DNA from: Tubulanus polymorphus
Lineage: Eukaryota > Animalia > Nemertea
Reading direction: 5' to 3'
Length of the DNA: 64,000 nt
NCBI RefSeq assembly: GCF_964204645.1
Contig: NC_134025.1
Span: 15,624,001-15,688,000 of the forward strand
Part shown: one piece after another, positions 42,070 through 62,911 of the stretch
Numbering within the stretch: the first letter of the stretch is position 1
How the letters are laid out: every line of letters starts with the position of its first letter
Made by a program: the position numbers and the translations under genes
The notes under the pieces: model-generated
What the model saw: only the letters and a program-made list of their open reading frames with translations
The model's database searches: none
What the model was told of the DNA's origin: nothing

Positions 42070-42071
<2 letters not shown>

Positions 42072-42236: not shown

Positions 42237-42369
42237 GTGAGTATCCATGCCCACCACCTTCCCGTACACAGTAGGCTACGCCTATACTAAGTCTTGTATT
42301 GTGCTCGTCAGAAAAAAAAAGATTCCGGCTACTACAATCACAGGGGCTCGTATCATAAGTTTGGGGGTG

Positions 42370-42778
42370 AGTAATAGGGGTAATGGGCTTTCAAATCAAA
42401 GGTCGAACGGTCGAGCTTATTAAAAACAAAACATTAAAAGTAATTTAAAACTATAATATATTTTCATAACCGTGTGCATTTTATATTATAACTAAATATT
42501 TATTCTAAGATATTAATAATTCAAATTTTAAAAGCATATTGTATTAAATCAATTGGTCGCTCCGCTTCGCTACCGCTCCACTCCGCGACCGATTGATTTA
42601 TTTACAATACACAAATTCATATAATCAAATATATTTTAATAATAATAATTATTCTATTATTCAACTGAAATGCACACGGTTTTGAAAATATATTATAGTT
42701 TTAAATTACTTTTAATATTTGTTTTTAATGAACTCGACCATTCAACCTTTAACCTGAAAGCCCATTACCCCTATTACT
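42370..42778. repeat. Left terminal imperfect palindrome (409-nt hairpin)
   Basis: AGTAATAGGGGTAATGGGCTTTCA...TGAAAGCCCATTACCCCTATTACT; apex AATTGGTCGC-loop-GCGACCGATT at ~42551-42594. Confidence 0.92.
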
Positions 42779-43010
42779 CTTAAAATAATCATATACATGA
42801 ATAACATTTAAATTGACAGATTATTCAATATAAAAGTGTAAGCTCTTATAGAATAGATATATAGATATATTTACAACATTATTTCAATATTCATATTTGT
42901 ATGAGTTAGATTTTTAAACATTAAAAGTGTCAGTAAAGTGTGATTGAAATAATTCATATATAAATCATTGAACTTCTAAAATCAATTAAAAAAAAAAAAT
43001 TAGTATTAAA
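42779..43010. repeat. Left subterminal inverted repeat (pairs with 60275-60495)
   Basis: For example, TAAATCATTGAACTTCTAAAATCAATT and its reverse complement at ~60299-60325; the repeat runs almost to the ATG of both terminal genes. Confidence 0.88.
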
Positions 43011-46000
43011 ATGGAAGCAAATAAGTACTACTGTCCAACATGTAATATCAATATACATAAATCCCAAAAATCAAGACACAATAAAACTAAAATACATTTA
43101 GAGAATAAATTGAAATTAGAATATAAGGATGATATATTAGAAACTAAATTAGAAGAATTAAAGAATGAAAAAGAAACATATAAATGTGATACATGTAATC
43201 AATCATTCAGTGATAAAAGATATTATAAAGAACATTTAAAATCTAAAAGTCATATTGGAAATATGAACAATGATATTTTAGGTGAGGATTATTTTGATAA
43301 AGATAATGATAAGAAACAGAAGACAATTAAAAGCATAAAAAATAAATTAAACAATAGAAGACCATACATGGAAGATGTAAGAAAATATATTAATTTATTG
43401 GATAATAAAAAAGATATAGAGACAACCGAAGCATTTAAAAGTGATATTGGTCCAGCAGCTATTGAGTTTAAATTTCATAAAGGAAAAACATTAGAAGAAA
43501 ATAAAAAACATTTAGAAAATATGAAAGAAATAATAAAAATAATAACTGATGTTGAATATCCTAAAATAAGTATTTCATCAAAAGTTAAATTCATAAAATC
43601 TGAAGATAAACCAATATATAATATAAATTCTCATTCACAACATATTATTTCAAAACAATATATAGATGATAACTTAGATAAATGTTATAATGAAGTAAAA
43701 ACTAAAATAGAAGAGAAATATTTTGATGGATCTGGTTTAATATTTGATGAAATAATATTTATGACTTTACATGTTTATAACACAAAATATAATAAGTTAA
43801 CTAAATCAAAACCAATTGATGAAAATAATGTATCATATTATAAAGAACCAGATATTGAAGCATCAAGTAATATTAAACTACCATTTAAAACTAATGCTGT
43901 AATAAATGGTCAAAATTTTGATGATAAATGTTTTCTATGGGCTATAATAAGTTGTTTACATCCTGCAATTTATAATATTTGTAGATTAACTCATTATAAA
44001 CCATTTGAAAATAATTATAAGATAGATAAGTATCCTGTTAGAATTAAAAACGTCCCAAAGATAGAAAGAGATAATAATTTAAGAATAAATGATTGATTTA
44101 ATCAAATTACCAAATACAAAAGGTAACAACATAAAACATTATACATTAGAACCTTTATACCTATCAAAAGATTATGATTCAAATGATGTTATAGATATAC
44201 TATATTATGCGAATCATTATATGTGGATTAAACAAATCGATTTATTTTTTAAATCAGAAAATGATCACCATAAAATATATCTTTGTAGAAAATGTTTACA
44301 TAGATTCAGTAATGAAAGTACATTATTAAATCATAAACAATTATGTGAAAATCATGATTATTGTAAATTAGTTTTACCAAATGAAAAGGATAAAATATTA
44401 GAATTCAAAAAATATGATTACAAAAATAAAGTACCATTTGTAATATATGGAGATTTTGAATCATTAAATAAAGAATTAACTGATCAAGATAGAAAAGAAA
44501 TATATTATAAAAGAAAAAAATTAAATTCTAATGAAAATGATTTTTCAGATGAACCACCAATAACAAATACAATTAAAAAGATCAGCTGCTGCTTTCGGGT
44601 TATATATTAAATCTGATTATCCAGAACTAATTGAAAGTGAATATTATAATTACAGAAATGAAAATGTTATCAATCATTTTTGTGACTTATTAATTGAATA
44701 TGAAATAGGATTTAGTAAATTATTGAATACAAATATAGAAATTATAATGACAGAAGAAGATAAAGAAGAATTTGCGTTTGCAGATAAATGTTATTATTGT
44801 GAAAAGATATTTAATTATAAAGATAAAAAAGTAAGAGACCATGATCATTTGAATGGAAAGTTTAGAGGCGCTGCACATGAGAATTGTAACTTACAAGCTA
44901 AGAAAATCAATTTTGTACCAGTTATATTTCATAATCTATCAGGATATGATGCACATTTATTTATCAAACAGTTATGTCATAAAATAGAAGAAATTAATAA
45001 TGAAATAGAAAGATTAAATTCAAATAGATCAAAAGATAAAATACCAACTCATAAATTTAGACTGTTAGCTAAAACATCTGAGAATTATATATCATTCCAA
45101 TTTGAGTGTTTAAGATTTATAGATTCATATAGATTTTTAAATAGTTCATTAGATAACTTATCAAAATCATTAGTTGATGATGAATTAAAAATATTAAAAC
45201 AACACTACCCAAATAATGATGATTTTCAATTAATGAGATATAAAGGAGCAATTCCATATTCTTTCTATAAAAATCATAATGATTTTAACATAACTGAATT
45301 ATTGAAAGAACAATTCTATGATGAATTAAAAAATGAATATGTTAAAGATGAAGTATATAATAGAACATTGAATATTTGGAATCATTTCAAAATAGAAAAT
45401 CATGGGCAATTAGTAGATTTATATTTAAAATCAGATGTATTATTATTAACCGATATATTCGAAAGGTTTAGAGATGTAAACCTAAAATATTTCAATATTG
45501 ATCCTTGTCATTGTTATTCTAGCCCAGGTTTAACATGGGATTGTGGATTAAAATTAACAGATATAAAAATGGATTTGTTAACAAATATAGATCAATTATT
45601 ATTATTTGAAAAATCTATAAGAGGAGGAGTTTCAGGTGTATTAGGTGATAGATATTTCAATGTAAATGATAACCCTGGATATAAGTTATTATATATAGAT
45701 GCAAATAATTTGTATGGTTGGGCAATGATGGAACCACAACCTTATGGAGTATTTGAATTAACTGAAGTTTTACAGAATGAAAATAATGATACATTTGATT
45801 GGAAGAAAAGAATCCTAGATATTGCAGATGATTCAGATACTGGTTACTTCTTTCTTGTAGATTTAGAATATCCTGAACATATTAAATTTAAATCTAGAAA
45901 TCTAGCATACTGTCCAGAACATAAAACTGTTACTCATGAAGAATTATCAAATTATCAAAAAAGAATTAAACCCGAAAATCTTATTCATACAGAAAAGTTA

Positions 46001-47104
46001 ATGGTAACTCAAGAAGATAAATATACTTATGTAGTACATTATAGAATGTTAAAGTTTTATCTAAAACAAGGAATGGTTCTAAAAAAAGTACATAGATATA
46101 TTTCATTTAGTCAATCTAAGTGGTTAGAAAAATATATAGATTTTAACACCAAACAGAGAACTGAAGCTAAAACTGATTTCGAGAAAGATTTCTTCAAGTT
46201 AATGAATAATGCATTCTATGGTAAGACTTGTGAAAATATTAGTTATAATGATATTGAGTTAGTTAGTAATGGTAAAAGAATTAGACATTTACAAGTATAT
46301 CCTAAGTTCATTGGTAACAGAATATTTGATGAAAATTTAGCCGCAGTTAAAATGAGAAGAACATCCATGAAATTTAATAAACCAATCTATGTTGGCGCTT
46401 CAGTTTTAGAATTATCAAAATTACTAATGTATGAATTCTATTATAATGTATTACAACCACTTTTTGGAGAAATACATATAGAAATATTATATTTTGATAC
46501 AGATGCTTACATATTAAAGATAAAAACTAATAACATAACTGATGATTTAAAAACATTAAAACATCATTTTGATTTCAGTAACTATCCTAGAAATCATGAA
46601 TTGTTTAGCAATGATAATAAAAAAGTTCCCGGTAAATTCAAAGATGAATTAGGTGGTGAAGAAATGATTGAATTCATCGGTATTAGATCTAAAATGTATT
46701 CATATAAAACTTAAGAACATGAAGCTAAAAAGTTAAAAGGAATAACCAAAAGTGTAGTAGAAAAGAATATTAATTTCAAAGATTACATCAATTGTATATT
46801 CAATGAAGAAGTTAGAAAACATAAGATGAAATGTTTAAGATCTGAAGATCATGAAATGTTTATTGAAGAAATTGAAAAGATAAGTCTAAACCCATTTGAT
46901 GGTAAAAGATATATTTTAGATGATGGAATTCATACAGTTGCTTATGGTTGCAATTTAGATGAATACTTAAAATTTAAAAGAGAAGAAACAAAAGAGAACG
47001 AGATAATGAAAAGAATTCTAACGTGTTCATCAAATTTTAATAAAAATATGTATTATAAATGGAGAGTAAACAAACACACAGTGAGAACAATAAATCATTT
47101 CTAG
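43011..47104 (+). pseudogene. polB: Protein-primed family B DNA polymerase, intein-free allele (frameshifts at ~44090 and ~44580, stop at 46712)
   Basis: ZnF; DDKCFLWAI; IYGDFES; [19 protein letters not shown]; YIDANNLYG; [10 protein letters not shown]; uninterrupted YFDTD. Confidence 0.93.
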
Positions 47105-47412: not shown

Positions 47413-47429
47413 GAAAATATGTAAAATAA

Positions 47430-48188
47430 ATGGTAGAATTAAAAGAATACAGAATATTTGTAGATTCTAGAAAACTTACAAATTATAAATCTCATAATTT
47501 ACTAGTTCAATTAGATAGAGAATTCAAGAATTGTGTAGATTTAAAATTAGTTAATATAAGTTTATGTAATTCTTTTTACAATGTATTGGATAAAACTGTT
47601 GAACATAGAGTCTTTTTAATTCATGATAGAAATAAAAGTAAATGGTTTCATCTTTATCTTAAACCAGGATTATATAATTTAGATACATTAGCGCAGGAAA
47701 TTAATAGAAGAGCTCGGTTGAAAATGGGTGCATCTGCTGGATTTGGATTAAGACTGATTAAAAGTGATAGCTCCGATAAAATAAGAATGAAATTAGGTAA
47801 TGAAGATCAACATCAATTTCTAGTTAGAAAACCTTTAGCTAAAATTTTAGGAATAACCCCAGATGTAAGGATACGCAATGCTGATGCTCCACCAAATATA
47901 ATGCCTTTTACACACTTTTATATTTATTGCAAATTAATCGATCCTACAAAAACATTCGAAGCAACTAAAGATATAACTTGTAATTCTGGTTTAATTAACA
48001 TTTTACCATTGAAGAATGTTAAAGAATTTGGAACGCAAATAAATTATAATTTAACAGAATGTGATTTCAAACCATGCATTCCTCGTTTTAATAATTTTAA
48101 ATTAGAAATTAGAAATCACAATGGATACTTAATTGATTTAAATAATTTCCCTGTAATTTATGAATTAGTTATAAGATGTAGAGAGTAA
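47430..48188 (+). CDS. Minor capsid protein (penton, single jelly-roll)
   Basis: IFVDSR...VQLDRE...LVNISLCNSFYNV, LKPGLY, FYIYCKLI, LEIRNHNGYLIDLN...YELVI. Confidence 0.75.
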   Translation: MVELKEYRIFVDSRKLTNYKSHNLLVQLDREFKNCVDLKLVNISLCNSFYNVLDKTVEHRVFLIHDRNKSKWFHLYLKPGLYNLDTLAQEINRRARLKMGASAGFGLRLIKSDSSDKIRMKLGNEDQHQFLVRKPLAKILGITPDVRIRNADAPPNIMPFTHFYIYCKLIDPTKTFEATKDITCNSGLINILPLKNVKEFGTQINYNLTECDFKPCIPRFNNFKLEIRNHNGYLIDLNNFPVIYELVIRCRE

Positions 48189-48205
48189 TTTTTTTCACTA
48201 TATAA

Positions 48206-48550
48206 ATGAATATAACTGTTGGACCGAGTATATGTTTTGGTTTTGATTTTAAACATGGCAAAGAAATGAGAATTAAACTAAATGATGTAATTACTGATAT
48301 AAAAAGTAAATCATTTAACAATTCATCAATGATTAATAAAGAAAATTATAATAAAGAAAAAGTAATTGATTTAATTAAATCACCTTTAGAATATTATGAT
48401 TTAAATGAAGATGGAATTATCGATGATATTAAAAACATATTATCCAAAATATATGATAATCATAAAAGTAGTAATGAAATAAATGTTGAATTAATCATCA
48501 CTAAGATAACTAAATATTTTGATGATAGTAATTTTTTGATAAATAAATGA
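48206..48550 (+). CDS. Hypothetical Polinton protein
   Basis: Intact ORF preceded by the T-run/TAAATG motif. Confidence 0.6.
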   Translation: MNITVGPSICFGFDFKHGKEMRIKLNDVITDIKSKSFNNSSMINKENYNKEKVIDLIKSPLEYYDLNEDGIIDDIKNILSKIYDNHKSSNEINVELIITKITKYFDDSNFLINK

Positions 48551-48768
48551 GTGATAATAAGTGGATAATAACTGGATTATATAATGGCGCATTACTATCA
48601 GTTGGAACTGTTGGTTATTCAATGGTTTTAAAAAAAGTATTCAAAATGGGAAGTGTTAATGTTGATAGATTTGATATAAATGATATTTTAAAATCAACAT
48701 TAGCAGTTACTTTATCTAATTTAACTATTGATTATTTAGAAAAACAAAAATATATTCCTCCCATATAA
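48547..48768 (+). CDS. Small hydrophobic virion-type protein
   Basis: 73 aa, two hydrophobic helices, TAAATG start. Confidence 0.6.
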   Translation: MSDNKWIITGLYNGALLSVGTVGYSMVLKKVFKMGSVNVDRFDINDILKSTLAVTLSNLTIDYLEKQKYIPPI

Positions 48769-48792
48769 ATGTGTAATTTTTTTACTAAATAA

Positions 48793-49215
48793 ATGGCTTC
48801 TGCAATTATAACTATTATAGGATCGGCAATTGTTAACGCTTTAACATTTACTGGTGGCGGTTATTTATTTAAGCATATTGATAAAAATGGTTCATTAACA
48901 GAACAAAAAAGACATAACTTAGCATTAGAGAAATATAATAAAGCAGCAGAAGAATATAGAGGAAAGAGGCAAAACTATATGGATTACATTAATAAAGAAT
49001 TATATGATCTGAAGATTTCACATAGAGATTTTCAATCAGTTGATGATGCAATGAGTTTATATAACGCAGAAACAAATAAAGAAAAATTACATCTACATAA
49101 ACCTACAATATCAGATTATTATACCCCAAGTAATGAACAGAAGAAGTATGAAATAATTTGGATTTTAGGCGGAACTGTTATTGTTATATTTGTAGCGTAT
49201 AAGTTTACTAATTAG
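48793..49215 (+). CDS. Polinton membrane-associated protein
   Basis: MASAIITIIGSAIVNALTFTGGGYLF...EQKRHNLALE; C-terminal transmembrane segment. Confidence 0.65.
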   Translation: MASAIITIIGSAIVNALTFTGGGYLFKHIDKNGSLTEQKRHNLALEKYNKAAEEYRGKRQNYMDYINKELYDLKISHRDFQSVDDAMSLYNAETNKEKLHLHKPTISDYYTPSNEQKKYEIIWILGGTVIVIFVAYKFTN

Positions 49216-49236
49216 TAATTTTTTTTTGCTAAATAA

Positions 49237-49662
49237 ATGGATGATAATATTGATATTATTCCTCATGATATAAATAAAACTGAATTAAAAACATATTTAG
49301 AAAAACAAATATTAGAATTTGAAAGTGACTTAAAAGTTAAAAAGAAAAAATATTTAAAAAGTAAAATTATATATTATTTTATTATTCGTGATTCAGTTAC
49401 AATTAGTTCTGTAATAACATTTCTAGCAATATTCAGTCCAATAACACCATTAGCTATATCAATTGGTGTATTAGGATTAAGTTCAAGTGTTTTAACCGGT
49501 ATAAGTTCAAAATTAAATATAAAAAGTAATAAAGAAAAAATTAAAACTAATATAAAAGAAATTAATAAATTAAAGAATACACTAGATTATATAATAAGTT
49601 TAAATGGTCATATAACAGTTGAAGAACAAGATATATTATTAAAAGAATTAGTTAATTATTAA
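49237..49662 (+). CDS. Two-TM coiled-coil protein
   Basis: Central hydrophobic hairpin flanked by Lys-rich coils. Confidence 0.6.
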   Translation: MDDNIDIIPHDINKTELKTYLEKQILEFESDLKVKKKKYLKSKIIYYFIIRDSVTISSVITFLAIFSPITPLAISIGVLGLSSSVLTGISSKLNIKSNKEKIKTNIKEINKLKNTLDYIISLNGHITVEEQDILLKELVNY

Positions 49663-49678
49663 TTTTTTAATTATATAA

Positions 49679-50960
49679 ATGGGGTTTCCAAAAGCTTTCC
49701 AATATAATAAATCAATTAAATATAATATTCCTGCAATAGATTTTAAGAAAAATATTACATATAGAAATGAAGTTTTAAATTCATTAATTGATTTATATAT
49801 TTATGTTACTGAAAGTAATAATTTTCACGTAAAGATGGAAAATATATTTCATGTGTATACAATTTATTTCAAAAATTTAAAATCTAATATAAAGTATTGG
49901 CAGAACCAATTAAATTTTGCTGTTTATTGCGCAACAACAGGATGTGGAATAAGTTGGAATGATCATTTAAACAAACCAAGTTTACCATTGATGGTATTAC
50001 TTTTTAGATTTCATATATATTTTCAAATAAAATTAATATTAGATGAATTAGAATGTCCTTTACCAAGTTCAAAATATTTTAAAGAATTGAATAATAATAT
50101 TAATTTTCCTAAGTTTTATAAAATATGTAATGAATTTAATATTAATTCAAATAAAGATTTTAGAGCAAAAATTGGAACAATGGGTGGATTAGGAATATTA
50201 TATACTAAAGAATTTGGAAAAATAATGACAAATTCAGATATAAGAACACTAAACTGGAATGAATTACCAAAATATTATAATAATGTACAACAACAAAATA
50301 ATAATGGTTAGGTTAATTTCATTTTAGAAAATAGTGAAGGTGTTACTGTAGCTGGTATACAAAGAATAAATCAATCTATTAGAACTTATTTGATATGTAT
50401 TTTAGGTGCGCAAGTTGAAACAAGATCCCCAATAATTGGAAATGATAACACTTCATTCGATGCGCAGAAACAATTCAAAGTATTATTTGAAGATTCAATT
50501 CATAATGATAAAAATAGATCTATTCCAGAAAACATTGTAAGATATCAAAATTATTTAGATAAATCACATATTAGATTAAATTATTGTATAGGCCCTAATC
50601 TATTAATTATTTCTAATGTATTAAAGATGGGAAATATAATTGGTTACAATAATCTAATTAAAACTGCAACAATAAATAATTCATTTGGATTAAATGATAT
50701 AAATAAAAAGATTATTACTGCTCCAAAATTAATTGAAGGTGAAAAAAATTAAAAACATATTCAATCAACAGAAACTAAAACTAATAATATTAAATTGAAT
50801 AATGATTCTAAAATAAAAGATTACAATACATCAGAAAATATTAGAACTGATAATATTCAACATGATATAATTAAACTAAATGATGATAATAAATCCCATG
50901 AAAATGCTAAATTAGCTTTAACTTGTATAGGAATTGTAATCGGAGGAATATTATATTTTA
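49679..50960 (+). pseudogene. Conserved Polinton protein (WQNQLNFAVYCATTGCG motif) interrupted by stops
   Basis: ORFs 49679-50311 and 50390-50752 are in the same frame, separated by a TAG; C-terminal transmembrane segment near 50910-50960. Confidence 0.65.
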
Positions 50961-50984
50961 AATTTTAATTTTTTTATTATTTTA

Positions 50985-52437
50985 ATGGCAGAAGGTGGAG
51001 GAGATTATGAAATGGAAAACAGGGGAAATAATGATGATGCCAATACTAACAATGATGATTATATGACTGCTGATACTAATATTGATAATGATAATGATAC
51101 AACATATAATTCTAATTTAGCAGAGAGTGGTTCTAAAGCCCCATCAACAGATGAACATGATAGAAGAACTAGATCGAGAATACCTATTGAAAATTTAGAC
51201 CAAGGTTTAGAAAGAGAAAATATAGAAAATTATGAATTTATGTATGATTTTCAACGTGTATTTAAAGATTCTGGATATAATATAAATGATAGAGGCGCCA
51301 GACGTTTAGTAAAAGAATTAAAGTTTTTAGATGGTGAATATTATTATAAATTGAAAGATGATTATTATATTAACATCTCTTAAAATTCAAGACAAAATAT
51401 TAGCAAAATCAACTTTGCTTAGGTTAGACCTATCTAAAATTAAAAGAATAAGAAATAGTAATGAACCAGAAGATGTAACACAAGAATTAATTGATAAAAA
51501 TGAAAATGTATTTAAACAAAGAATTAAAAAATTATTTGAAACAATCAAAGATAATCCAGAAGCAGAAACAACTTCCGAACAGAATAAAATTTTCAAAACT
51601 AGTAAACTTAAATCAAACACTGAAGTTCAAACTGAAAAACTTTTACCGAAGGGATTACTTGATTCAACAGATCAAGAAATAGAAGCTTTAAGTATGTTTT
51701 CTAAAAAAAACAATTAGAGAAATAATAAGTATACGAGATGAAGCTGATAAAATTGCACGCGAAGAACATATTAGATATAATAAAATTAAACCTTTAGAAA
51801 ATAAATTATTTGACACCAGAAAAGAATTAGAACAATTAAAATTAGATAGAGAATTTAAAGTTATTGAAGAAATTGAATTTAAAAAAAGAAATGCATATTT
51901 AGAAAAAGAAATTGATGATTTAGAATATAACATAGAATTTCAGAAAGAAAAAATGAAATTATTATTAAATCATATGATTATTGTATTAATAGATTAAAAG
52001 TTGTTGTTAAAGAGTTAATACTGAAACCAAATTCTGAAATATCACTAAAAGATAGAATAAAATTATTATTTAAGTTTGAAGGAATCACAATTCTTTCAAT
52101 TCTAACAGCTGTAACTATGTTATTTACAACAATTGGTTTAGCAATATCAAATTCTTTGAAATCTACTCCTACTCCCAATAAACCAGATAAACCTCCAAGC
52201 AATAATTCTATACAAGATAAAGTTAAGGATGGTTTAAAGAAATTAGCAAAATATTTATGGGAACTATCAAAGAAATCTGCTGCAGCATTACCAGGAGTTA
52301 TTGCATCAATTGTTGGTTTTATATTGAAATCTGCAGGAAACATTATTAACTTTGCTGCTGAACATATTATTTTATTTTTAATTACAGTTGTAAGTGCTAT
52401 TATTTTTGGATTAGTAAACATGATAAAAAATAAATGA
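50985..52437 (+). pseudogene. Coiled-coil protein with C-terminal amphipathic/TM helices (putative membrane-active virion protein), frameshifted
   Basis: Fragments 50985-51383, 51358-51717, ...DRIKLLFKFEGITILSILTA...LAKYLWELSKKSAAALPGVIASIVGFI. Confidence 0.6.
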
Positions 52438-52457
52438 TTAATTTTTTTGTTAAATAA

Positions 52458-53705
52458 AAGAGTGGGAGTTATATCAATCCTTCTAAGAATCATAGAATAT
52501 CTAATGCTATTAAAGCAGAAAGATCACATCATATAATTACACATAATCCTTCTAATATTAATCCTGATGAAACTTTATATGTTAGAATTCCTCGATTAAC
52601 ACAAAATACTTTTTATGTTCCAAATAGTAATTATTTATCAGCCGATATAAAAGTAATCGGTAATAATAATAATTATGTTGTTGATAATGTTGGAAGGTAT
52701 TTGATTAAAAAGTTAACAATAAAGATTGGTCCAGAAACCGTTTTCTCATTAGATGATTATAATTTATTTATGCATTATAAAGATTTATGGTTAACTAAAG
52801 AAAATAGAAATAATATGATATTTCAAGGCATCCAATCAGAAAACCAAAATAAATTAAGATCAGGAGCTAATGACGCAATAGCAACTCGCACCGCAGATAA
52901 TTTCATAAAAAAGATTTATGGAAGCAAATATAAAATTCCATTAGACTTTGAATTGATAAATAACAATGCACCTTTATATAAATATGCAATTCAAGAAGAT
53001 GTTATATTCGAAATAACATTTGTTCCTGTAAATGGAATTGTATTATCTAGCGTTGTTAAAGATATGGGTTATAAATTATCGAATATATGTTTAGAATATG
53101 ATACAGTAACTGATGAAAATATTTCAAGTATAATTCAAACTAAATACAATCAAGGATTTTCATTATTATATGATTATATTGATAAATTTAAAACTGTAAC
53201 TATTAATGCAAATGATGAAATTATTAATGAGAGTATTAACTTCCCAAGAAGATCTATTAAAGGTATATTAATATTTTTTACCATTGCAACATATACTAAT
53301 GGCGCAATAAATGTTGATAATTATTATAATCCTGAAATAACAAAAGTAGAAATAACTATCGAAGGAATAGCAAATAAAATATTTTGTCAAGGAATGAGAA
53401 TGATAGATCAGTGGCCAGAAATTAGAAAACATTTTATGAATGAAAAAGTAAAATCATCTGAAAATTGTAATATTAATCAAATTGATTATTATACCGGTAA
53501 TAAATATGCATTATGGTTAGATTTTAGAACAACAGAGGATAATTCATTACATGGTTCTGGAAAAAAATTACAAAATACAAAAGATGGAATACAATTATTC
53601 ATGACAAAGAATAAAGGAATCAAACATTTTAAAATGCATATTTATATTATATCTGACGCGCAATTAAATATTGTAAATTCTCAATTGAATAGTGTTATGT
53701 ATTAG
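52458..53705 (+). CDS. Major capsid protein (double jelly-roll); start codon apparently mutated ATG to AAG
   Basis: Open frame from 52458: SYINPSKNHR...THNPSNINPDETLYVRIPRL...VDNVGRYLIKK...YKIPLDF...YKLSNICLEYD...LWLDFRT...LHGSG. Confidence 0.8.
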   Translation, partial: KSGSYINPSKNHRISNAIKAERSHHIITHNPSNINPDETLYVRIPRLTQNTFYVPNSNYLSADIKVIGNNNNYVVDNVGRYLIKKLTIKIGPETVFSLDDYNLFMHYKDLWLTKENRNNMIFQGIQSENQNKLRSGANDAIATRTADNFIKKIYGSKYKIPLDFELINNNAPLYKYAIQEDVIFEITFVPVNGIVLSSVVKDMGYKLSNICLEYDTVTDENISSIIQTKYNQGFSLLYDYIDKFKTVTINANDEIINESINFPRRSIKGILIFFTIATYTNGAINVDNYYNPEITKVEITIEGIANKIFCQGMRMIDQWPEIRKHFMNEKVKSSENCNINQIDYYTGNKYALWLDFRTTEDNSLHGSGKKLQNTKDGIQLFMTKNKGIKHFKMHIYIISDAQLNIVNSQLNSVMY

Positions 53706-53737
53706 AATTTCAACTTTAATAAAAATTTATATAATAA

Positions 53738-54259
53738 ATGGAAGGAGGTAAAGTATATAAACATATTCCATACATCGATACACATGCAAATAATGATGGT
53801 TTATATTATGTGATACCTTGTAATATAGCTTTGATATTTGATCCTATTTTCAAAATTTATGAAACTAAACTAATAGAAATAGATAATAATAAAAGTGAAG
53901 TTGTTGATGATTTAAGTAATGTAATACCTTCTACATCTAATAATGTAATACCTACTACATCTAATAATGTAACACCTACTACATCTAATAATGTAATACC
54001 TTCTACATCTAATAATGTAATACCTTCTACATCTAATAATGAAATAATATTAAATTATGGTGAAAATAAAAATTATTGTGGATATTGTAATGGTGAATTT
54101 TCAAACGCTCCATCTAATTGGAATAAACATATGAATACAAAGGTACACATTACTAATGCGGTAGAAAGGATGAAAAAGTATAAAAATAAAACAACTATTG
54201 ACGATGATACGGTAGAGAATTTGAATAAATTGTTAGGGTCTGATAGTGAAAGTGATTAA
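53738..54259 (+). CDS. Zinc-finger protein with five 9-aa (SNNVIPSTS-type) repeats
   Basis: 27-bp tandem repeats at ~53913-54040; CGYC...HMNTKVH. Confidence 0.7.
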   Translation: MEGGKVYKHIPYIDTHANNDGLYYVIPCNIALIFDPIFKIYETKLIEIDNNKSEVVDDLSNVIPSTSNNVIPTTSNNVTPTTSNNVIPSTSNNVIPSTSNNEIILNYGENKNYCGYCNGEFSNAPSNWNKHMNTKVHITNAVERMKKYKNKTTIDDDTVENLNKLLGSDSESD

Positions 54260-54672
54260 AATATTAATTATATTTAACACAAATAATAATATTGGTGGAA
54301 AATTGTATAAAATAATAGTAAATAAAAAGGGGGTTTTAAGTATTTAAGGTATTTAAGGTATCTAATACATATCTAATACATATCTAATACAATCTAATAC
54401 ATAAAATATCTTATTTTATAAACTGATATTCATATGGAAATTGAAACCTCAGTAATAATAAATAACCTTTATTATTTTCAAACTTATTCATATATTAGTT
54501 GAAAAAATAAAAATAAATTGGTTGAAAATTGTATAAAAAATATTTATTTTAAAAAAGGGGGTTTTAAGTATTTAAGGTATCTAATAGGATATCAGGTATT
54601 AGGGTATCTAATAGGGTATCAGGTATTAGGGTATCATGTATTAGGGTATCTAATACATAGGTATATAACTAG

Positions 54673-55284
54673 TTATTTTATATATTTATATTCATATGGA
54701 AATTGTAGTCTCAGTAATAATTTTGAACCTTTATTATTCTTTAATTTATTCATATATTCATCATGTTATTCAGTAGGTATAATTTGATTTTCTTCCAATG
54801 ATTGTTGCATAGATTTTCTATCTTTGTTATAAAATAAAACTAGAAATCTAATGTTTTCTCTAAAGTCTTTAACAATTGAATTATATTTTTGATTTAAAAC
54901 CCATGTTGTAATCCCAAAATGTCTCCCAGAGAAAGCTAGATAACATAACTCACTTTCTCTAACTTTTGAATCATGTAAATTTGCGCAATCATCTATGATA
55001 AATAATGTAGTTGATCCTTTATAAGTATCAATTGCTATTTTTATACAATTATCTAAATTTTCTTTTACTGTTTTAGGATTTAATATAATAAACTTTTTTA
55101 TCTTAACTATATCTCTATTATATGTTTTATTCATTTCATAAGTAGGACAAAATAATATTATATTATTAAAATGATTCTTATAAATAGTTTCTAACAAGTC
55201 TAATATGAAATGTGTTTTACCACAATTGGTTACTCCAGTAACTTACATATTATGCGGTTCAAATATAAATAAATCTTTATTCAT
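54673..55284 (-). pseudogene. A32/FtsK-like DNA packaging ATPase
   Basis: Walker A GVTNCGKT, Walker B FIIDD, GRH, NQKY; in-frame stops just before Walker A and at 54766. Confidence 0.88.
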
Positions 55285-56376
55285 TTATTCTTTTAATTTT
55301 ACTAGATAAAATCCATTCATTAAATTTATCATCATATCCCTATATTTCACCAAAGAATACTTTTTTACTTTAAGAGTTTTTGTTTTCAATACTTTTTCTA
55401 TTTTGTATTCTATTTCATCTGGATTTGGTACAAGTGATAATTCTTGTTCATAGAAATATCCTAATATTTCTTCATCTTTTAGATCTTCTAGTTTATAAAC
55501 AAATGGTTTAGTTAATATTATCTTTTTAATCTTGAATATTTCTTCTGTAAAATTTGGGGTATAACCTTTATAAAATGTTTTTCTATATTTAGATATTCTA
55601 ACGTGTTGTCCAATTTTAAATTTAGGTTCTCCGAAATCATGTGTAACAAATGCTCCATATAAATTATTCCAAACTATTTCTGAATTATCTTCTTTTCTAG
55701 CTTGTATAGGTTTCATACCAATACTTGAATGTTTAGAATTATTATAACCTTTCACTAAATCATCTAACACATCGATATATTTATATGTTTCATTAGCAGT
55801 AAAATATTTCCACATTCTAGTTTTCAATGTTTTATTAAATCTTTCTATAATAGATGCTTTTTTATCTGAATGTGTTGAAAAATAATCTACATCGTTATCA
55901 GATAATAGTTTTTTAAAATGTTTGTTATAAAATTCCTTACCTTCATCAAATTGTATCTTATCTGGAATAGCTTCTTTAAATATATTCTTAAAAGCGTTTG
56001 TAACTTCTATTCCGGTTTTATTTTTGATTGGAATTGACCATGCGTATCGACTGAATATATCTATAACATTTAATATCCAGAAATATCCTTTGTTGTATTC
56101 CTCTAAGTTCTTCATGTCAATTAAATCTGCTTGCCATTGTTAATCGATATATGAAACCATAACTTTTCTTATTAAATAAGTTTTATCCATTTTCTTGTGG
56201 ATTTGATATGTTGGTTGATTTGGTAACCATGATTTCAACTCACTATATTTTATATTTTCATTATCAGATTTAATTTTACTCCATAATTCTGAAACGTTAG
56301 AATATGATACTTCACTTTCTGGGTTATAATATAACTCTCTTAAATATTGTTCTTTTTTCGTCTTATTTTAATCCAT
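55285..56376 (-). pseudogene. Retroviral-like (rve) integrase with C-terminal chromodomain
   Basis: YYNP..., WQADLIDM, IDIFSRYAW, QFDEGKEF, IERFNKTLK, HSSIGMKP, chromo YKIEKVL; two nonsense codons in the N-terminal part. Confidence 0.9.
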
Positions 56377-56735
56377 TAATAATAGTTTAGATTTAGTTTC
56401 AATGGCTTTATGATTTGACTTATTTTCTGGTATAATAGGTTTATTGTCATTGGAATCATATTTATCATCAGATTTGAATTTTGATTTATATATTACACCG
56501 GATAATATGATAATTGTTACTAATCCAATTGTAATATATAATTTATAATTACTTCCAGCATTAGAAGAATCAGATGGATTATTACTTGAATCAATATCAG
56601 CTAAAGTCTGTGATTCATTTATATCAGTTAATTTCTTTGTCTTAGCTTTTTTAATTCTGAAGATCTTTTACCTAATTCTCTTGCCCATTTAATTTGTTTC
56701 TCGGATCTAGCCTTTTTCTTAACTCCATCACTCAT
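56377..56735 (-). pseudogene. Small basic protein with a transmembrane segment, frameshifted
   Basis: MSDGVKKKARSEKQIKWARELGKRS... then YITIGLVTIIILSGVI. Confidence 0.5.
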
Positions 56736-57330
56736 TTATTTTAGTTAATTTTTGTTCTGATTCATTTTCTGTTTCACTGTTTGGTTGTAGTACATCTGTT
56801 TCGTTCTTACCTGATTTATATTCCATAGGCTTGATATTCGAAAATGTAATGACGCCAGTAGAAATTAATGTCATAACCGATCCTAATTGAAATGAAGCAT
56901 AACCAACCCATTTTTGTAATTCAGTCATAACTAAATAGTCATTTTTCAAATCACTATATAATTTATTTTCATCATTAATTGGTATTAACTGGTTACATAA
57001 CTTAGAATAACATTTGACAATACCATCTGAAATAGAATCATTTATTCTAGCTGATCTTGCTTCTTCATAAATCTTAAAATATTTTATTACTTTATCGGGT
57101 TTCATAGAGTCTAATTCTTGAAAAGTAATAATTCTATTTAAAAACTCTTTAGTTTTTCCACCGGCAATCAATAGTTCTAGATGATGCTTACAATATAAAT
57201 AGTATTCATAATCTATATTACAATTAACTTGAGCACAATTAGTTACAACTGTATCTTTATTATCACATATACCCAAATCATCTAATGTTTTTTCAATATC
57301 AATACTATTCTTATTAGTTTTCTTTGACAT
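56728..57330 (-). CDS. Conserved hypothetical Polinton protein
   Basis: Intact 200-aa ORF (LELLIAGGKTKEFL...DLKNDYLV) with the T-run/TAAATG motif. Confidence 0.65.
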   Translation of the reverse strand: MSKKTNKNSIDIEKTLDDLGICDNKDTVVTNCAQVNCNIDYEYYLYCKHHLELLIAGGKTKEFLNRIITFQELDSMKPDKVIKYFKIYEEARSARINDSISDGIVKCYSKLCNQLIPINDENKLYSDLKNDYLVMTELQKWVGYASFQLGSVMTLISTGVITFSNIKPMEYKSGKNETDVLQPNSETENESEQKLTKINE

Positions 57331-57631
57331 TTATATTAGAAAAAAAAGCAAAGAAGATATTATAAGTATTCTTCAAATGATACTAGCTAGTTAAAGCTAA
57401 AGAATTCTAGTATTGACTACTGATACTAGCTATTTGAATTTAAAGAATTTCTATTTGAATCTATTCAAAATATAAAGTATTCTCTTTTTGAAAAGAAAAT
57501 ATTAAAAATATAATAGAATTCACTAGCAGTTGAAGTTATTGTTTTTTTAATATATTTTATTTGAATTCTATTTGATATCTCACTACTTTTGTTTATCTAT
57601 TAGGAGCAGTAATTATAACTGTCCAGATAAG

Positions 57632-57847
57632 TCATTTCGGATCCTTGATATCAAATTCCTCAACGTATTGTTCATTATTTGGATCATTGTTCCATTGATC
57701 AATAAATTTCTTTGCATTTGTTAACTGTTCTAAATATAACTGTAAATCTAGTTTATTAGATTTGATTTGATTTTCTTTCTTTTCAAGAGGTCTTAAATTT
57801 TTCAAATTCCAAACAAGTTTTTTATTGTATTCATCATTCCTTTCCAT
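57632..57847 (-). pseudogene. Truncated duplicate of the HNH protein C-terminus
   Basis: YNKKLVWNLKNLRPLEKKENQIKSNKLDLQLYL is nearly identical to the end of 59621-60274. Confidence 0.8.
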
Positions 57848-58052
57848 TTATAAATCAAATTTTTATTAAAATTGATTAACATTTTAGAATCCTCTTCCAT
57901 TTCTTCGACTAACGTCATCCTTTTTCATTCCTCGCTGCTTTTTATGTCATTTCGGATCCTCGATAATAAATCCTCAACTGAAAATCAATTCAACGAAACG
58001 ACTGGTGGAAATATTATTTCATAAACACATATATTTATTATGTAAATTTTAG

Positions 58053-58385
58053 CGATCGATAATAGAACAATGGAGAACAATAGAAAAGCGGTCCAATCGG
58101 ACCGGTTATTGCGCAATACACAGTTATATTTTTATTCTGTAAACTACAGCATTCAAACATAGAAATGTAACCAATCAATATTGAGCAGCTGTTTCCGTCA
58201 ACAACGATCAATAATAGAACAATGGAGAACAATAGAAATGCGGCTAATCGGACCGGTTATTGCGCAATACTTAGTTAACAGTAAACAATCAATACAGAAC
58301 AACCGCCGCCATTAACAACGATCAATAATAGAACAATGGAGAACAATAGAAAAGCGGTTCAATCGGACCGGTTATTGCGCAATAC
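58053..58385. promoter_or_regulatory. Three ~66-bp direct repeats with Sox-like (AACAAT) and C/EBP-like (ATTGCGCAAT) motifs
   Basis: Units at 58053, 58205, 58319. Confidence 0.55.
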
Positions 58386-58480
58386 TTAGTCAACAGTAAA
58401 CAATACAATATTAAAACAGATATATACAATCGGGATTACATTTTTGATATCTATATTACAAAGACCTTCAGTGTTATAAT

Positions 58481-59209
58481 TTATAATTTTGTCCAGAATT
58501 CTTTAATCACTGGATTGTTTCCAATAATTTCTTCAATTTCTGGTAAATATCTGACTACTTCACTAAATGCTAATCCTAATATTTTGAATTTTTCATATTT
58601 TATTAATCTACCTACTCTTCTCAGTTTTCTTTCAAAGCCGGCACTGATATCTATGTTCTTTTTAACCCACAGCCCCCAAGAAATCCCCTCATTTTCTTTA
58701 TCAAACATTGAAAACCCTATATTTAGATAACCCCCGAAAATGATGTGGTCCCATAGGTGATTTGCTTTTCTATTTAATATGGTTTTATAACTTTTTTTTA
58801 AGATATCAGTAATTTCAGCAAATGAAATAACTTCTACACTTTGTATTTCCAGAAAGTTTAAATGATCTGTGTCAATGATTAATTTAGATTTTAAAAACTC
58901 GTTCAACTCTTCTCCACTCATTTTCTTAGTTTTCGATTCTTTGAGTCCCAACAGCAATTTAAGTCGCATTGCTGGTAATTTTGGTAATTGTAGTTCGCGC
59001 GGTAATTGTTTATTATGTATTACATCACTCAAAATTTTCACCATTTCTTGATGATAGTCCAAATGTTCTTGTAATTTTTGTGAAGTTTGTTCGTCAATTA
59101 CGAGAGTTTTATCCTCCATTTCTATTGATTCCTGTGTTTCACTATCCATCGTTTCTGGTTCCTCTTCCGATGGTTGACTTGGAATTTCTGGTTGTTCTCT
59201 GTATTCCAT
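58481..59209 (-). CDS. Hypothetical protein (242 aa, acidic N-terminus)
   Basis: Intact ORF inside the Polinton. Confidence 0.65.
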   Translation of the reverse strand: MEYREQPEIPSQPSEEEPETMDSETQESIEMEDKTLVIDEQTSQKLQEHLDYHQEMVKILSDVIHNKQLPRELQLPKLPAMRLKLLLGLKESKTKKMSGEELNEFLKSKLIIDTDHLNFLEIQSVEVISFAEITDILKKSYKTILNRKANHLWDHIIFGGYLNIGFSMFDKENEGISWGLWVKKNIDISAGFERKLRRVGRLIKYEKFKILGLAFSEVVRYLPEIEEIIGNNPVIKEFWTKL

Positions 59210-59620
59210 TTTAATCTAAAAGATGTCGTGAAAATGAATTACTGTACTTAAATATGTTTAAAGGTTTCCCTACTTCATAATATATGTACTTACATTTAGA
59301 TTTAGAACTGTAAACTGTGTTTTGAGAGAGAATATCCAATACGTAGTATGTATGTGAAAGTTGATTTCTAACTGCCGACGTGGCGCACGTTCAACCAAAC
59401 TAATTACTTCTGCATGTTTGCCTGGATTGTAACAGATGTTCCTTTGTGATGTAATTGATTAATCCTTTTCAACTGAAATAGCACATTCGATCAATATTCA
59501 AATGAGGTGCGCCCCATTCAAGTGAATATGAAATACGGCACAGATGTTTTTGTAAACAACCTAATACAATTACATATAGGCGGTTTGACATAGATCGAGA
59601 GTAACCGGTTTTCTAAGCGC

Positions 59621-60274
59621 TTAAGCTCCAACGTATTTTTCATTATGTGTTGAATTCCATAATTCAACAAATGTCTTTGCTTTATCCAGTTGATCTAAAT
59701 ATAACTGTAAATCTAGTTTATTAGATTTAATTATATTTTCTTTCTTTTCTAAAGGCCTTAAATTTTTCCAGTTCCATATTAGCTTCTTATTATAATCATC
59801 ACTCATGTCAAATTTAGAAATCGGCAACACATGATCAATATGAAAGTATTCACCATAATTATCTATATTCATTTTATCATCGAATTGATATATTATCCAT
59901 GATATGAAAAATTCATCTGAACAACCCAATAAATTAGATAGTGTTTCTGAATGCGTTTCTTTGTTGAATAATTGTGTTAATCTAGATCTTAAACATTGTT
60001 TTAATCTAAAATTAAGATCTGTTTGATATCTTTCTCTCATATATTCTGTCATATAATCATTATAAGCTTCTCTATTATCATCTCGATATTGTTTGGTATA
60101 TAGTTTAGTACAAGTTTTACAGCAATATTGAAAACCATCTTTGCTAATCTTACGCTTATTAAATTCTGTTATAGCTAATTTATCTATTTCACATTTAGAA
60201 CACTTCTTGTAGTATATGTTTATGACACCAGTGTTATTTGTAATATTGATAGTTTGTAGTTGTTCTGATTCCAT
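59621..60274 (-). CDS. HNH endonuclease of the type common in large DNA viruses
   Basis: N-terminal CSKC...CKTC; LLGCS...NYGEYFHIDHVLPISKFD...NWKNLRPL...EN..KSNK. Confidence 0.8.
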   Translation of the reverse strand: MESEQLQTINITNNTGVINIYYKKCSKCEIDKLAITEFNKRKISKDGFQYCCKTCTKLYTKQYRDDNREAYNDYMTEYMRERYQTDLNFRLKQCLRSRLTQLFNKETHSETLSNLLGCSDEFFISWIIYQFDDKMNIDNYGEYFHIDHVLPISKFDMSDDYNKKLIWNWKNLRPLEKKENIIKSNKLDLQLYLDQLDKAKTFVELWNSTHNEKYVGA

Positions 60275-60495
60275 TTATTATACATATTTTTTTTACTAAA
60301 TTGATTTTAGAAGTTCAATGATTTATATCATGTATTATTTCAATCACACTTTACTTACACTTTTAATGTTTAAAATCTAACTCATACAAATATGAATATT
60401 GAAATAATGTTGTAGATATATACTTTTATATTGAATAATTTGTCAATTTAAATGTTATTCATTTATATTTTATTCATGTATATGAATGTTTTAAG
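60275..60495. repeat. Right subterminal inverted repeat
   Basis: Reverse complement of 42779-43010 with indels. Confidence 0.88.
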
Positions 60496-60683
60496 AGTAA
60501 TAGGGGTAATACGCATTCAGGCTAAAGGTTGAAGGGGCGAGTGAGTAAAAAATGAAAATAACAATAATTTCCAGTTGAATTAGGAGTGTGCGCGACTAAT
60601 TCAACTGGAAATTATTGTTATTTTCATTTTTTACAAGCTCGACCCTTCGACCTTTGGCCTGAAAGCCTATTACCCCTATTACT
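60496..60683. repeat. Right terminal imperfect palindrome (188-nt hairpin)
   Basis: AGTAATAGGGGTAAT...ATTACCCCTATTACT; long perfect inner stem AAAATAACAATAATTTCCAGTTGAATTAG / CTAATTCAACTGGAAATTATTGTTATTTT. Confidence 0.92.
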
Positions 60684-61039
60684 GGGGTGAACTGTAGCTT
60701 AGATCATCCAGTACTGGATGATCTAAGCTACAGTTCACCCCCAAACTTATGATACGAGCCCCTGTGACTACAATAGGCCATACAATACAATACAGTACAC
60801 ACTAGGCCTATCATGCCTATTGACATGTAAATTGTTTTGGCAATAGACTGATATCCAATGTCTATTTCTACTTGATTTAAGAGGATATCTATTTTCGTCT
60901 GACGAAAAGGTCTTAATTTTCTCATGTTGAATTGAGAAAATTTAGCCATTTTTAAAACGAAGTGGATATTTAACTGGCGTAGGCCTACGGCTAAGTGTTA
61001 ACTTCTACTATTTTACATTACATCATTACTTTTATAGTA

Positions 61040-61435
61040 CGCTGTGGCTTCTCGTACGGACCCGTACGGATTACTCTGGAAGCTATTCGTACGGAACTAG
61101 GATCTGTACGCTAATAACTGTCGCTGATTGGCCGATTAACGCCGCGCATGCGTACAGAGGTGCACGACTTAGAAAATTCAAGAAAAGTGTGGAGAATAGT
61201 TAGAAAAAATAGCGGATCGAGCGAGACTCGAACCCGGGCTAGTAAATTACTAGCGCAGCATCATTCCACTAGACCACCGATCTCGCTGACAGTCGGTCGA
61301 ATGTTTTAACTACATATTGCCTCACCTTACCCTAACCCTATACCTTCCCGTACACATAATTCCAGAGTTATCCGACGGTTGCGTACGAATAGCCTACGGA
61401 ATTATTCGTACGGGTCCGTACGAGTAGCCACTTCG
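61040..61435. mobile_element. MITE with 9-bp TSD (MULE-like) carrying a tRNA-like Pol III cassette
   Basis: TIR CGNNGTGGCTWCTCGTACGGACCCGTACG; TSD TTTATAGTA (61031-61039, 61436-61444); minus-strand A box TGGTCTAGTGG and B box GGTTCGAGTC at ~61212-61290. Confidence 0.75.
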
Positions 61436-61516
61436 TTTATAGTATCAACTAATCAAAGTAAGAATAAAATCATTTTATTGGGTTTAGGGTTCGGGTTCTA
61501 AAGGACCCAGGTCCAG

Positions 61517-61625: not shown

Positions 61626-61860
61626 CAGAGGGTTAGGATTAGAGTTAGGGTTAGGGTCCGTTTACCCCTAGGAATAGGATTAGGGTAAGGTGAGAAACCA
61701 TAGATAGTTAGGCCCCTAAAACATTTGATTGGTTTTCAGCGAGCTCGGTGGTCTAGTGGTATGACGCAGCGCGGGTCCTTCTTATTACCGAGATGACGTT
61801 ATTTACCGAGATGAAGATGAACCGAGATGACATGAAATATAACATATTTGTTTATTCCTT

Positions 61861-62140
61861 ATCGATTTTAACACTTGAAATCATGTTATATCAGTAATAA
61901 ATACCTTCTAGAGTCATCATATTCTACTTATTTTTCAGGATATTTTTGATAAAAAAAATTTTGACTTCAAATACGTCATCTCGGTTAGCAATAAAATTTC
62001 ATTGAATTTGATTGATTGACGATCTCATCTCGGTAAAGTTAAAAGTTATTTTTCTACAAAATATCCTGAAAAATAGGTAGAATGTGACTCTAGAAGGTAT
62101 TTATTACTGATATGATATGATTTCAAGTGTAAAAATCGAT
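61861..62140. repeat. Fold-back repeat with ~95-bp arms
   Basis: ATCGATTTTAACACTTGAAATCAT...CAGTAATAAATACCTTCTAGAGTCA and its reverse complement. Confidence 0.75.
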
Positions 62141-62911
62141 ATATCGCGTCACGTCGACATGAATATGTCGATATATCGTGACGTTTTCACGACAAATTTC
62201 GCTTTTTCGCCCATTTTCCACGGGTAAAACCGTCATTTGAAGACATGTCTAAATGTAAGATGAGGACACCAGTAATATGACGACTGAGTTTCAAGTCGTC
62301 GTGAATATGTCGACTTGTCGCGAGGAAAGTGGTCGAAAAAGCGAAATTTGTCGTGAAAACGTCACGATATGACGACATATTCATGTCGACTTGACGCGAT
62401 ATATCGCGATATGTCGACATAAATATGGCGACTTGACGAGTTGGAACGCGACAACTCGAGGCCCCTTATCGCTTCCGTAGATATCAACTCCTTTTCAAAA
62501 TAGAGGTGATCGACCATCAAATACAGCCACTACGGTAGCCATCTTGAATTTGTCAGCACAATGTCGATATGTCGACATATCCCGTCAAGCCGACATAAAT
62601 GTCGACATATCGTGACATTTTTACGACAAATTTCGCTTTTTCGCCCATCTTCCACGGGACAAGCCGTCATTTGAAGACACGTCGAAATGTAAGATGAGGA
62701 CGCCAGTAATATGATGACTGAGTTTCAAGTCGTCATGAATATGTCGACTTGTCGCGAGGAAAATGGTCGAGAAAACGAAATATGTCGTCAAAACATCACG
62801 ATATGTCGACATATTCAGATCGACTTGATGCGATATATCCTGATATATTGATATAAGTATGACAATTTGACGAGTTGGAAAGCACGACAACTGGAGGTTA
62901 TCGCTTCCGTA
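62141..62911. mobile_element. Two further copies of the GTCGAC-rich MITE family
   Basis: Similar to 40650-40989; both end TTATCGCTTCCGTA (~62479, ~62911). Confidence 0.8.

What the first reader, a model, noticed from the sequence alone, without database searches (positions are those of the whole stretch)
60496..60683. Right end is a different, shorter hairpin (188 nt): heterotelomeric ends or mini-element caps
Seen: the right end also folds back, starting and ending with AGTAATAGGGGTAAT / ATTACCCCTATTACT. It shares only the outer ~60 nt with the left hairpin; the inner stem and loop are unrelated. The junctions to the core are symmetric (TATTACT|CTTAAAA and TTTTAAG|AGTAATA). The element therefore carries four copies of the terminal sequence. 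Inference: either two functionally distinct origins, as in heterotelomeric parvoviruses, or each cap is an independently mobilisable integrase substrate (a Polinton-derived MITE), making the element a composite transposon.
Basis: partly seen in the sequence, partly recalled or inferred. Interest (0 to 1): 0.78.

Follow-up and report, generated by a model that had tools for sequence, protein, structure and literature searches.

The report
Polinton with two different hairpin ends
An 18-kb virus-like jumping element (a Polinton/Maverick) has many copies in its host, probably an animal, and carries two different long fold-back sequences, one at each end; these likely let each single-stranded end restart DNA copying on its own, an end design I did not find described for animal Polintons.

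Summary
Confirmed. 60496-60683 is a 188-nt fold-back (z -21) ending an 18.3-kb Polinton (pPolB, rve integrase, A32 ATPase, double-jelly-roll capsid, 6-bp TSD); the left end is a 409-nt fold-back sharing the outer 62 nt. Raw reads of the same species show the asymmetry is family-wide, not decay. About 1,000 reads leave each end at exactly these bases into unrelated DNA. Left and right loops have near-equal depth (1,460 vs 1,320), and right-cap variants change stem letters or length. Polarity is fixed (flipped or snap-back junctions under about 5%), so parvovirus-type flip/flop is not seen. Solo caps are bounded below about 40%, not excluded. The polymerase keeps the predicted terminal-protein serine and OTU Cys/His. 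Best reading (0.55): caps are telomeres that fold on the 3' ends of displaced single strands of a protein-primed replicon; self-pairing ends would explain their divergence. Closest print: 52-nt terminal palindromes of Halocafeteria virophages/PLVs (2026 preprint), mostly without pPolB. This scan earlier noted subterminal Polinton hairpins in other genomes, not two unlike terminal caps. No free intermediate was seen; spread beyond this host is unknown.

The parts
42364..42369 (.). Left target-site duplication GGGGTG
42370..42778 (.). Left cap: 409-nt imperfect palindrome flush with the element end; folds best on the - strand (whose 3' end is terminal)
   Evidence: 1,097 reads leave at 42370 into unrelated DNA
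42779..43010 (+). Left inner inverted repeat (~230 bp), ends at the ATG of the polymerase region
   Evidence: 200 of 214 aligned positions match the right inner repeat, 45 gap positions
43011..47104 (+). Protein-primed DNA polymerase B, broken into several frames in this copy: zinc fingers, predicted terminal-protein domain (G-S-G), OTU-like domain, endonuclease VII insert, polymerase
   Evidence: Pfam PF03175 3e-15, PF02945 3e-5; motifs; fold of the window's paralog
52458..53705 (+). [quoted passage not shown]
   Evidence: model pLDDT 89.7; PBCV-1, iridovirus and mavirus capsid hits, best E 6e-17
54766..55242 (-). A32-type packaging ATPase (piece)
   Evidence: PF04665 1e-10
55285..56139 (-). 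rve retroviral-type integrase (piece)
   Evidence: PF00665 8e-9
57632..57847 (-). Relic of a second HNH-like gene
   Evidence: 78% over 199 nt to the gene at 59621-60274
59621..60274 (-). HNH / endonuclease VII-like ORF, 217 aa, starting at the end of the right inner repeat
   Evidence: phrog_1035 endonuclease VII 2e-16
60275..60495 (-). Right inner inverted repeat
   Evidence: deletion variants in other copies
60496..60683 (.). Right cap (the finding): 188-nt imperfect palindrome; outer 62 nt shared with the left cap, own ~26-bp inner stem and 12-nt loop; folds best on the + strand
   Evidence: 946 reads and 1,827 reads (both end types laid here) leave at 60683 into unrelated DNA
60684..60689 (.). 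Right target-site duplication GGGGTG

Best explanation
The two caps are the fixed left and right ends of a high-copy Polinton family, and they likely work as fold-back telomeres on the 3' end of each displaced single strand. Shown: the integrase joins host DNA at the outer tip of each cap with a 6-bp duplication; left- and right-type caps occur in near-equal numbers, in one polarity. Inferred: the polymerase's own terminal-protein domain primes at the outer tip and strand displacement releases single strands. Each 3' end then pairs with the inner copy of the 62-nt terminal sequence, giving a local duplex origin without needing the other end. That duplex is either re-primed by the terminal protein or extended from its paired 3'-OH and later cut on one strand near ATTACT|CT (candidates: the integrase, the endonuclease VII insert of the polymerase, the HNH gene). 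Because each end pairs with itself, only the protein-bound 62 nt must stay alike between ends, so inner stems and loops are free to diverge, and no hairpin transfer means no flip/flop.
For: Ends are precise and family-wide: loose ends at 42370 (1,097 reads, agreement 0.34) and 60683 (946, 0.35). Left loop depth 1,460 (85% likeness), right loop 1,320 (82%); left-type letters make up 46-56% of outer-arm reads at three marker positions. The stem is kept in variants: three position pairs vary on both arms at 36-52% and keep Watson-Crick pairing, and 149 reads show shorter right caps whose replacement letters form their own stem-loop. Transition mismatches give G-T pairs on the strand whose 3' end is terminal in 16 of 18 stem cases, and that strand folds 5.6-5.8 kcal/mol better at each end. 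Self-pairing of the 62-nt arms on those strands (-55) beats left-right pairing (-51/-52 outer, -42/-44 inner). The serine of the G-S-G motif is present in 80 of 84 rows (4 gaps), Cys in 82 of 84, His in 67 of 84 (14 gaps), all kept in this copy. The fold resembles adintovirus polymerase N-termini (E 4e-18) and weakly Y-family polymerases and OTU domains (E 0.03-0.12), as PMC11071308 describes for terminal-protein and vOTU domains.
Against: No free or replicating form was seen: no place where many molecules start or end, and no snap-back junction. The G-T bias has a weak control: other fold-backs in the window give 7:2, 5:12, 3:5, 2:3 and 11:10; three of the 18 columns are shared by descent between the ends, and part of the left stem aligns poorly. 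Paired changes come from pooled short reads on a palindrome, not phased copies, and one variable stem position (60562, 61%) has no listed partner (62 rows hidden). The fold was made on the window's paralog (52% identical), and its PDB hits are not significant. No relative outside this host showed caps. A recessed paired 3'-OH invites snap-back dimers, and how these would be avoided or resolved is not shown.
Confidence: 0.55

Rival explanations
1. The free genome is a duplex with closed hairpin ends, or replicates by rolling hairpin. The integrase nicks one strand at ATTACT|CT at each end, joins the 3'-OH to the target, and host repair unfolds the hairpins; an encoded endonuclease VII/HNH resolves dimers.
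For: It predicts exactly four terminal copies, symmetric junctions and G-T pairs on the 3'-terminal strands. Two HNH/EndoVII-type nucleases are encoded. The inner junction keeps an extra CT next to the tip sequence, as expected before 3' processing (retroviral 3' processing recalled). Hairpin priming is the model proposed for Halocafeteria elements.
Against: Symmetric resolution (poxvirus, AAV; recalled) would give both isomers, and fixed polarity is seen. The terminal-protein serine is retained. No hairpin-closed or head-to-head junction reads. Single-form termini do occur in parvoviruses (PMC8242256), so polarity alone does not exclude it.
Confidence: 0.2
2. The hairpins are real and inherited but not needed for replication: a packaging, end-protection or end-repair signal, or a relic of one ancestral snap-back accident carried along because only the outer tip matters to the integrase.
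For: Distant relatives with the same capsid family have ordinary repeat tips (L129, L137). The Halocafeteria authors list accidental annealing as an alternative. Fold-back repair of truncated ends is shown for Streptomyces telomeres (PMC5449611).
Against: Stems stay paired after letter and length changes in several subfamilies, and both ends have kept a hairpin while diverging, which a neutral relic would not require.
Confidence: 0.15
3. Each cap is an independently mobile miniature element, and two of them bracket the core as a composite transposon.
For: Each cap has the integrase tip sequence at both of its ends. Right-loop depth is 1.33 times the adjacent core. The read bound on solo caps is loose (under about 40%).
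Against: No 6-bp direct repeat flanks either cap; the core sides of both junctions are the same inverted sequence. No solo cap in the window. Left:right is about 1.1:1. Host-flanked inner arms are not among the six best-supported loose ends (each under 372 reads). Core depth is under-counted for diverged copies.
Confidence: 0.1

Closest known systems
Polintons/Mavericks (adintoviruses) of animals; PMC8097293, PMC8502044, bioRxiv 10.1101/2023.08.22.554363
   Same: Size, pPolB with OTU-like N-terminus, rve integrase, ATPase, double jelly-roll capsid, 6-bp TSD, AGT...ACT tips; HNH insert in the polymerase as in pPolB2.
   Different: Their ends are described as a matching pair of inverted repeats; the words hairpin and palindrome do not occur in the main text of these three papers. 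Here only 62 nt of the outer ends match, each end is its own long palindrome, and a second inverted repeat lies inside.
Endogenous virophages (subtypes 1, 2, 5, 6) and PLV subtype 4 of Halocafeteria seosinensis; bioRxiv 10.64898/2026.07.28.741278
   Same: Palindromes at the termini next to the TSD, rve integrase, hairpin priming proposed (section 7 read).
   Different: Protist host; 52 nt in the figured subtype; preferentially with non-pPolB replication genes; the section read does not describe unlike left and right palindromes. Supplements not seen.
Heterotelomeric parvoviruses (MVM, bocaparvoviruses); PMC8242256
   Same: Different left and right hairpins with mismatches; some termini in one form only.
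   Different: Small single-stranded genomes with an HUH Rep, no integrase or TSD, no shared outer repeat; here 18 kb, pPolB, integrase.
Streptomyces linear replicon telomeres; PMC5449611
   Same: Terminal protein together with palindromic 3' ends that fold back.
   Different: Bacterial, several short palindromes, internal origin with end patching by Tap/Tpg; unrelated proteins.

Membership tests
Polinton/Maverick | Protein-primed family B polymerase | tested here: met
   PF03175 3e-15; broken in this copy
Polinton/Maverick | rve integrase and 6-bp target-site duplication | tested here: met
   PF00665 8e-9; GGGGTG on both sides
Polinton/Maverick | Packaging ATPase and double jelly-roll major capsid | tested here: met
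   PF04665; fold match
Polinton/Maverick | Terminal inverted repeats with AG/AGT...CT/ACT tips | tested here: met
   Outer 62 nt match at 53 positions, tips AGT...ACT; atypical: not a perfect (AGT)2, and the longer repeat is internal
Polinton/Maverick | Terminal-protein and vOTU domains at the polymerase N-terminus | tested here: inconclusive
   Motifs kept; viral-library hits significant; PDB hits only E 0.03-0.12; paralog folded
Polinton/Maverick | Maturation protease and minor capsid protein | tested here: inconclusive
   No protease hit among 21 of the element's frames scanned in Pfam, which are fragmented; no candidate was folded
Heterotelomeric parvovirus | Unlike left and right terminal hairpins | tested here: met
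Heterotelomeric parvovirus | HUH Rep/NS1 initiator, 4-6 kb genome | tested here: not met
   18.3 kb; no Rep hit in 21 frames
Heterotelomeric parvovirus | Flip/flop isomers from hairpin transfer (at one end at least) | tested here: not met
   Loose ends at 60683 carry no inner-repeat signal; simulation would show it from 5%; left end same by low agreement
MITE / composite transposon | Each module flanked by its own target-site duplication | tested here: not met
MITE / composite transposon | Solo copies elsewhere in the genome | tested here: inconclusive
   None in the window; under about 40% of caps by reads; no genome held
Any hairpin- or protein-primed replicon | Free intermediate with the predicted end structure | not testable with these tools
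   Short-read genomic library only; none seen

The most novel reading that the evidence does not exclude
A lineage of animal Polintoviruses has replaced the adenovirus-style panhandle with a hybrid of protein priming and hairpin self-priming: two specialised hairpin telomeres, cut on one strand by an element-encoded nuclease or the integrase, bridging adenovirus-like and parvovirus/poxvirus-like end replication in one integrating virus.
Probability: 0.3. Interest if true: 0.82.

Novelty: new variant of a known kind. Interest (0 to 1): 0.63.

Why it matters
Polinton replication rests on an untested panhandle and protein-priming model (background recalled; the model is restated). A family with probably hundreds of copies whose ends pair with themselves, differ from each other and keep one polarity gives sharp predictions about the free intermediate, and short substrates for testing the integrase and nucleases. 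It extends terminal palindromes from protist virophages, mostly without pPolB, to an element that keeps a terminal-protein polymerase. It also suggests that pipelines needing a long matching terminal repeat would place such ends at the inner repeat and miss the TSD.

Tried and rejected
No whole genome is held and the contig look-up for homologous proteins was closed, so ends of close relatives and solo caps could not be read directly. Viral-contig searches with the capsid found no relative. The 15-mer gave 100 single matches in viral contigs, none with cap likeness beyond chance; a 24-nt pattern gave 0; a 22-nt junction pattern gave 1 prokaryote-genome match of only 24-26 nt. Of 242 metagenome relatives 80 were kept; none shows a cap (best blast E 4e-4 over 46 nt). 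The closest five (69-76% capsid identity) do not show element ends. L159's 206-nt end palindrome is a GC-rich repeat with TTAGGG units, rejected. Rfam: 0 matches in 42000-61500. Phage collection: no capsid match. The 'solo share' arithmetic (11-34%) is rejected: it wrongly counted a solo cap's second end on the outer arm. The binomial values printed were for trial counts and are not used. The joint 60468-60683 on opposite strands (19 reads) is read as left-end junction reads, not flips. Post-insertion decay and assembly artefact are rejected. The protein atlas did not answer. Kapitonov and Jurka 2006 was not obtained and is recalled only. Runs X1-X3 (contigs, one study) gave only short pieces and were not used for counts.

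Full report
Observation. 60496-60683 begins and ends with the same 15-mer in opposite orientation and folds as a single hairpin (-82.1 kcal/mol, z -21, 0 of 200 shuffles), with 82 of 94 arm positions paired. The left end, 42370-42778, is a 409-nt hairpin (-111.2, z -20, 0 of 100). The 15-mer occurs four times against 0.25 expected. The four arms share 45-54 of their first 62 nt. Beyond that the caps differ, though both loops, read outward, start GGAGTG and end GCGAC (29 of 1000 shuffles as good) and a 13-of-14-nt stem match exists (253 of 5000); these post hoc tests are only suggestive.

Context. The caps bound an 18,314-bp, AT-rich island (21-32% GC in 1-kb windows against about 39% around it) with a GGGGTG duplication on both sides. 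It encodes a family B polymerase with an endonuclease VII insert, an A32 ATPase and an rve integrase, a double jelly-roll capsid protein and an HNH/endonuclease VII-like gene next to the right end. Several genes are broken by stops and frame changes in this copy. Inside the caps lies a second inverted repeat of about 230 bp (200 of 214 aligned positions match) that ends at the start codon of the first inward gene on each side. This is a Polinton/Maverick; no protease or minor capsid gene was identified. An animal host is inferred from the repeat landscape and the viral structure hits, not shown.

Other copies. No genome is held, so I used raw reads of a run with the same species label (X4, one run, 1,934 million letters, about 12% of it). 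Laid on the whole element, 1,097 reads leave at 42370 and 946 at 60683 into sequence with agreement 0.34-0.35, i.e. many different insertion sites ending at exactly these bases. Depth at the left loop is 1,460 (position 42591, 85% likeness) and over the right-specific stem and loop about 1,320 (82%). With only the right end as reference, left-type letters make up 46, 49 and 56% of outer-arm reads at three marker positions. So the two cap types are about equally common and the asymmetry is a family trait. For a genome of 0.5-2 Gb (assumed) this is roughly 340-1,500 copies.

Polarity. If 5% of the reads leaving 60683 continued into the inner repeat, as flipped caps, closed hairpins or head-to-head dimers would, their majority string would match that repeat at about 25 of 30 letters. 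It matches at 14, against 14.6 for host DNA alone. Flip/flop and snap-back forms are therefore rare in this library. No place where many molecules begin or end was listed. A genomic short-read library of inactive copies says little about free forms.

Solo caps. In one search the six best-supported loose ends of X4 go down to 372 reads (4,921 rows over all runs hidden), and neither inner junction is among them. Caps with host DNA on the inner side are thus under about 40% (372 of 946; 372 of 1,097). Neither cap has its own direct repeat and the window has no other copy. The composite model is unlikely, but a minority of solos is open.

Is the fold kept? In pooled reads three pairs of the right-specific stem (60571/60608, 60572/60607, 60574/60605) vary on both arms at 36-52% and keep Watson-Crick pairing; 60506/60673 does the same at 43 and 28%. 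Position 60562 varies at 61% with no partner listed (62 rows hidden). 149 reads show shorter right caps whose replacement letters form a small stem around a similar loop. Two mismatches of the outer stem are private to this copy. These reads are unphased and the reference is palindromic, so the pairs are supportive, not proof. In the window's copy 16 of 18 transition mismatches in the stems give G-T on the strand whose 3' end is terminal (left 13:2, right 3:0; by hand p about 0.001, or 0.007 for 13 of 15 after removing columns shared by both ends). That strand folds 5.6-5.8 kcal/mol better at each end, but five control fold-backs gave 7:2, 5:12, 3:5, 2:3 and 11:10.

Priming apparatus. In an alignment of 84 rows the G-S-G serine is in 80, the cysteine in 82 and the histidine in 67 (gaps 4, 2, 14), all present in this copy. 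A model of the matching region of a paralog in the window (52% identical; pLDDT 88.9) hits adintovirus and MELD-virus polymerases (E 4e-18, 6e-12) and weakly Y-family polymerases and OTU domains (E 0.03-0.12). PMC11071308 (passages and sections 7 and 9 read) identifies these as terminal-protein and protease domains. Protein priming is thus likely retained.

Mechanism. Best reading (0.55): protein-primed strand displacement releases single strands whose 3' ends fold on themselves. On those strands self-pairing of the 62-nt arms (-55 kcal/mol) beats pairing between ends (-51/-52 outer, -42/-44 inner). The fold gives a local duplex origin that is re-primed or extended and then cut on one strand. 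This accounts for four terminal copies, the strand bias, fixed polarity and free divergence of the inner stems. Rivals: hairpin-closed or rolling-hairpin genome opened at integration (0.2), a non-replicative signal or relic (0.15), composite of mobile caps (0.1). All mechanistic steps are inferred.

Relatives and literature. Among 80 metagenome loci kept of 242 none shows a cap. Only L129 and L137 (35-36% capsid identity) show a recognisable tip, and these look like ordinary repeats with 22- and 59-nt internal hairpins; short-read assemblies often lose such ends. Ten paper searches gave one close precedent: terminal palindromes next to TSDs in Halocafeteria virophages and one PLV subtype, 52 nt in the figured case and mostly without pPolB (bioRxiv 10.64898/2026.07.28.741278; passages and section 7 read; supplements not seen). 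Word searches for hairpin and palindrome gave 0 in PMC8097293 (section 7 read), PMC8502044, bioRxiv 10.1101/2023.08.22.554363 and PMC12220804; only passages of these were seen. PMC8242256, PMC5449611, PMC11296320, PMC12747079 and PMC6431247 were seen as passages. Subscription journals and Repbase entries were not searched. Earlier notes of this scan describe subterminal hairpins in Polintons of other genomes, unchecked here; look-ups by place, by sequence and by other words were empty.

Verdict. A real, family-wide and unusual end structure of a known kind of element: new variant of a known kind, interest 0.63.

Noticed in passing
window 42329-42369 and 60684-60776: The element landed off-centre inside a host palindrome; the empty site folds as a perfect stem of about 55 bp, and reads show it is a repeated host sequence (depth 230-900).
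   Followed up: partly
window 22128-28100: A second, related AT-rich Polinton piece with a 1,130-aa open polymerase frame (73-80% DNA identity to the capped element); no terminal repeats or caps found.
   Followed up: partly
window 13228-21267: Reverse-transcriptase ORFs (617 and 622 aa) in a 2.1-kb perfect inverted duplication with 804-bp tandem copies, between AAT/GAT microsatellites; recent rearrangement or assembly artefact.
   Followed up: no
window 57600-60300: The accessory region is very variable among copies: reads show many joints linking the inner repeats to different HNH-like genes (e.g. 60293 to 57869, 43122 to 57747 on opposite strands), suggesting a cassette that swaps next to the ends.
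   Followed up: no
window 60320-60461: A 140-nt deletion variant of the inner inverted repeat is common among copies (259 reads).
   Followed up: no
window 40573-41457, 61039-61436, 61860-62908: Host fold-back repeats (MITE-like), used as controls for the G-T count.
   Followed up: partly
L103:9082-9359: A close relative (74% capsid identity) has an AT-rich duplicated palindrome of 205-241 nt between ATPase and the next gene.
   Followed up: no
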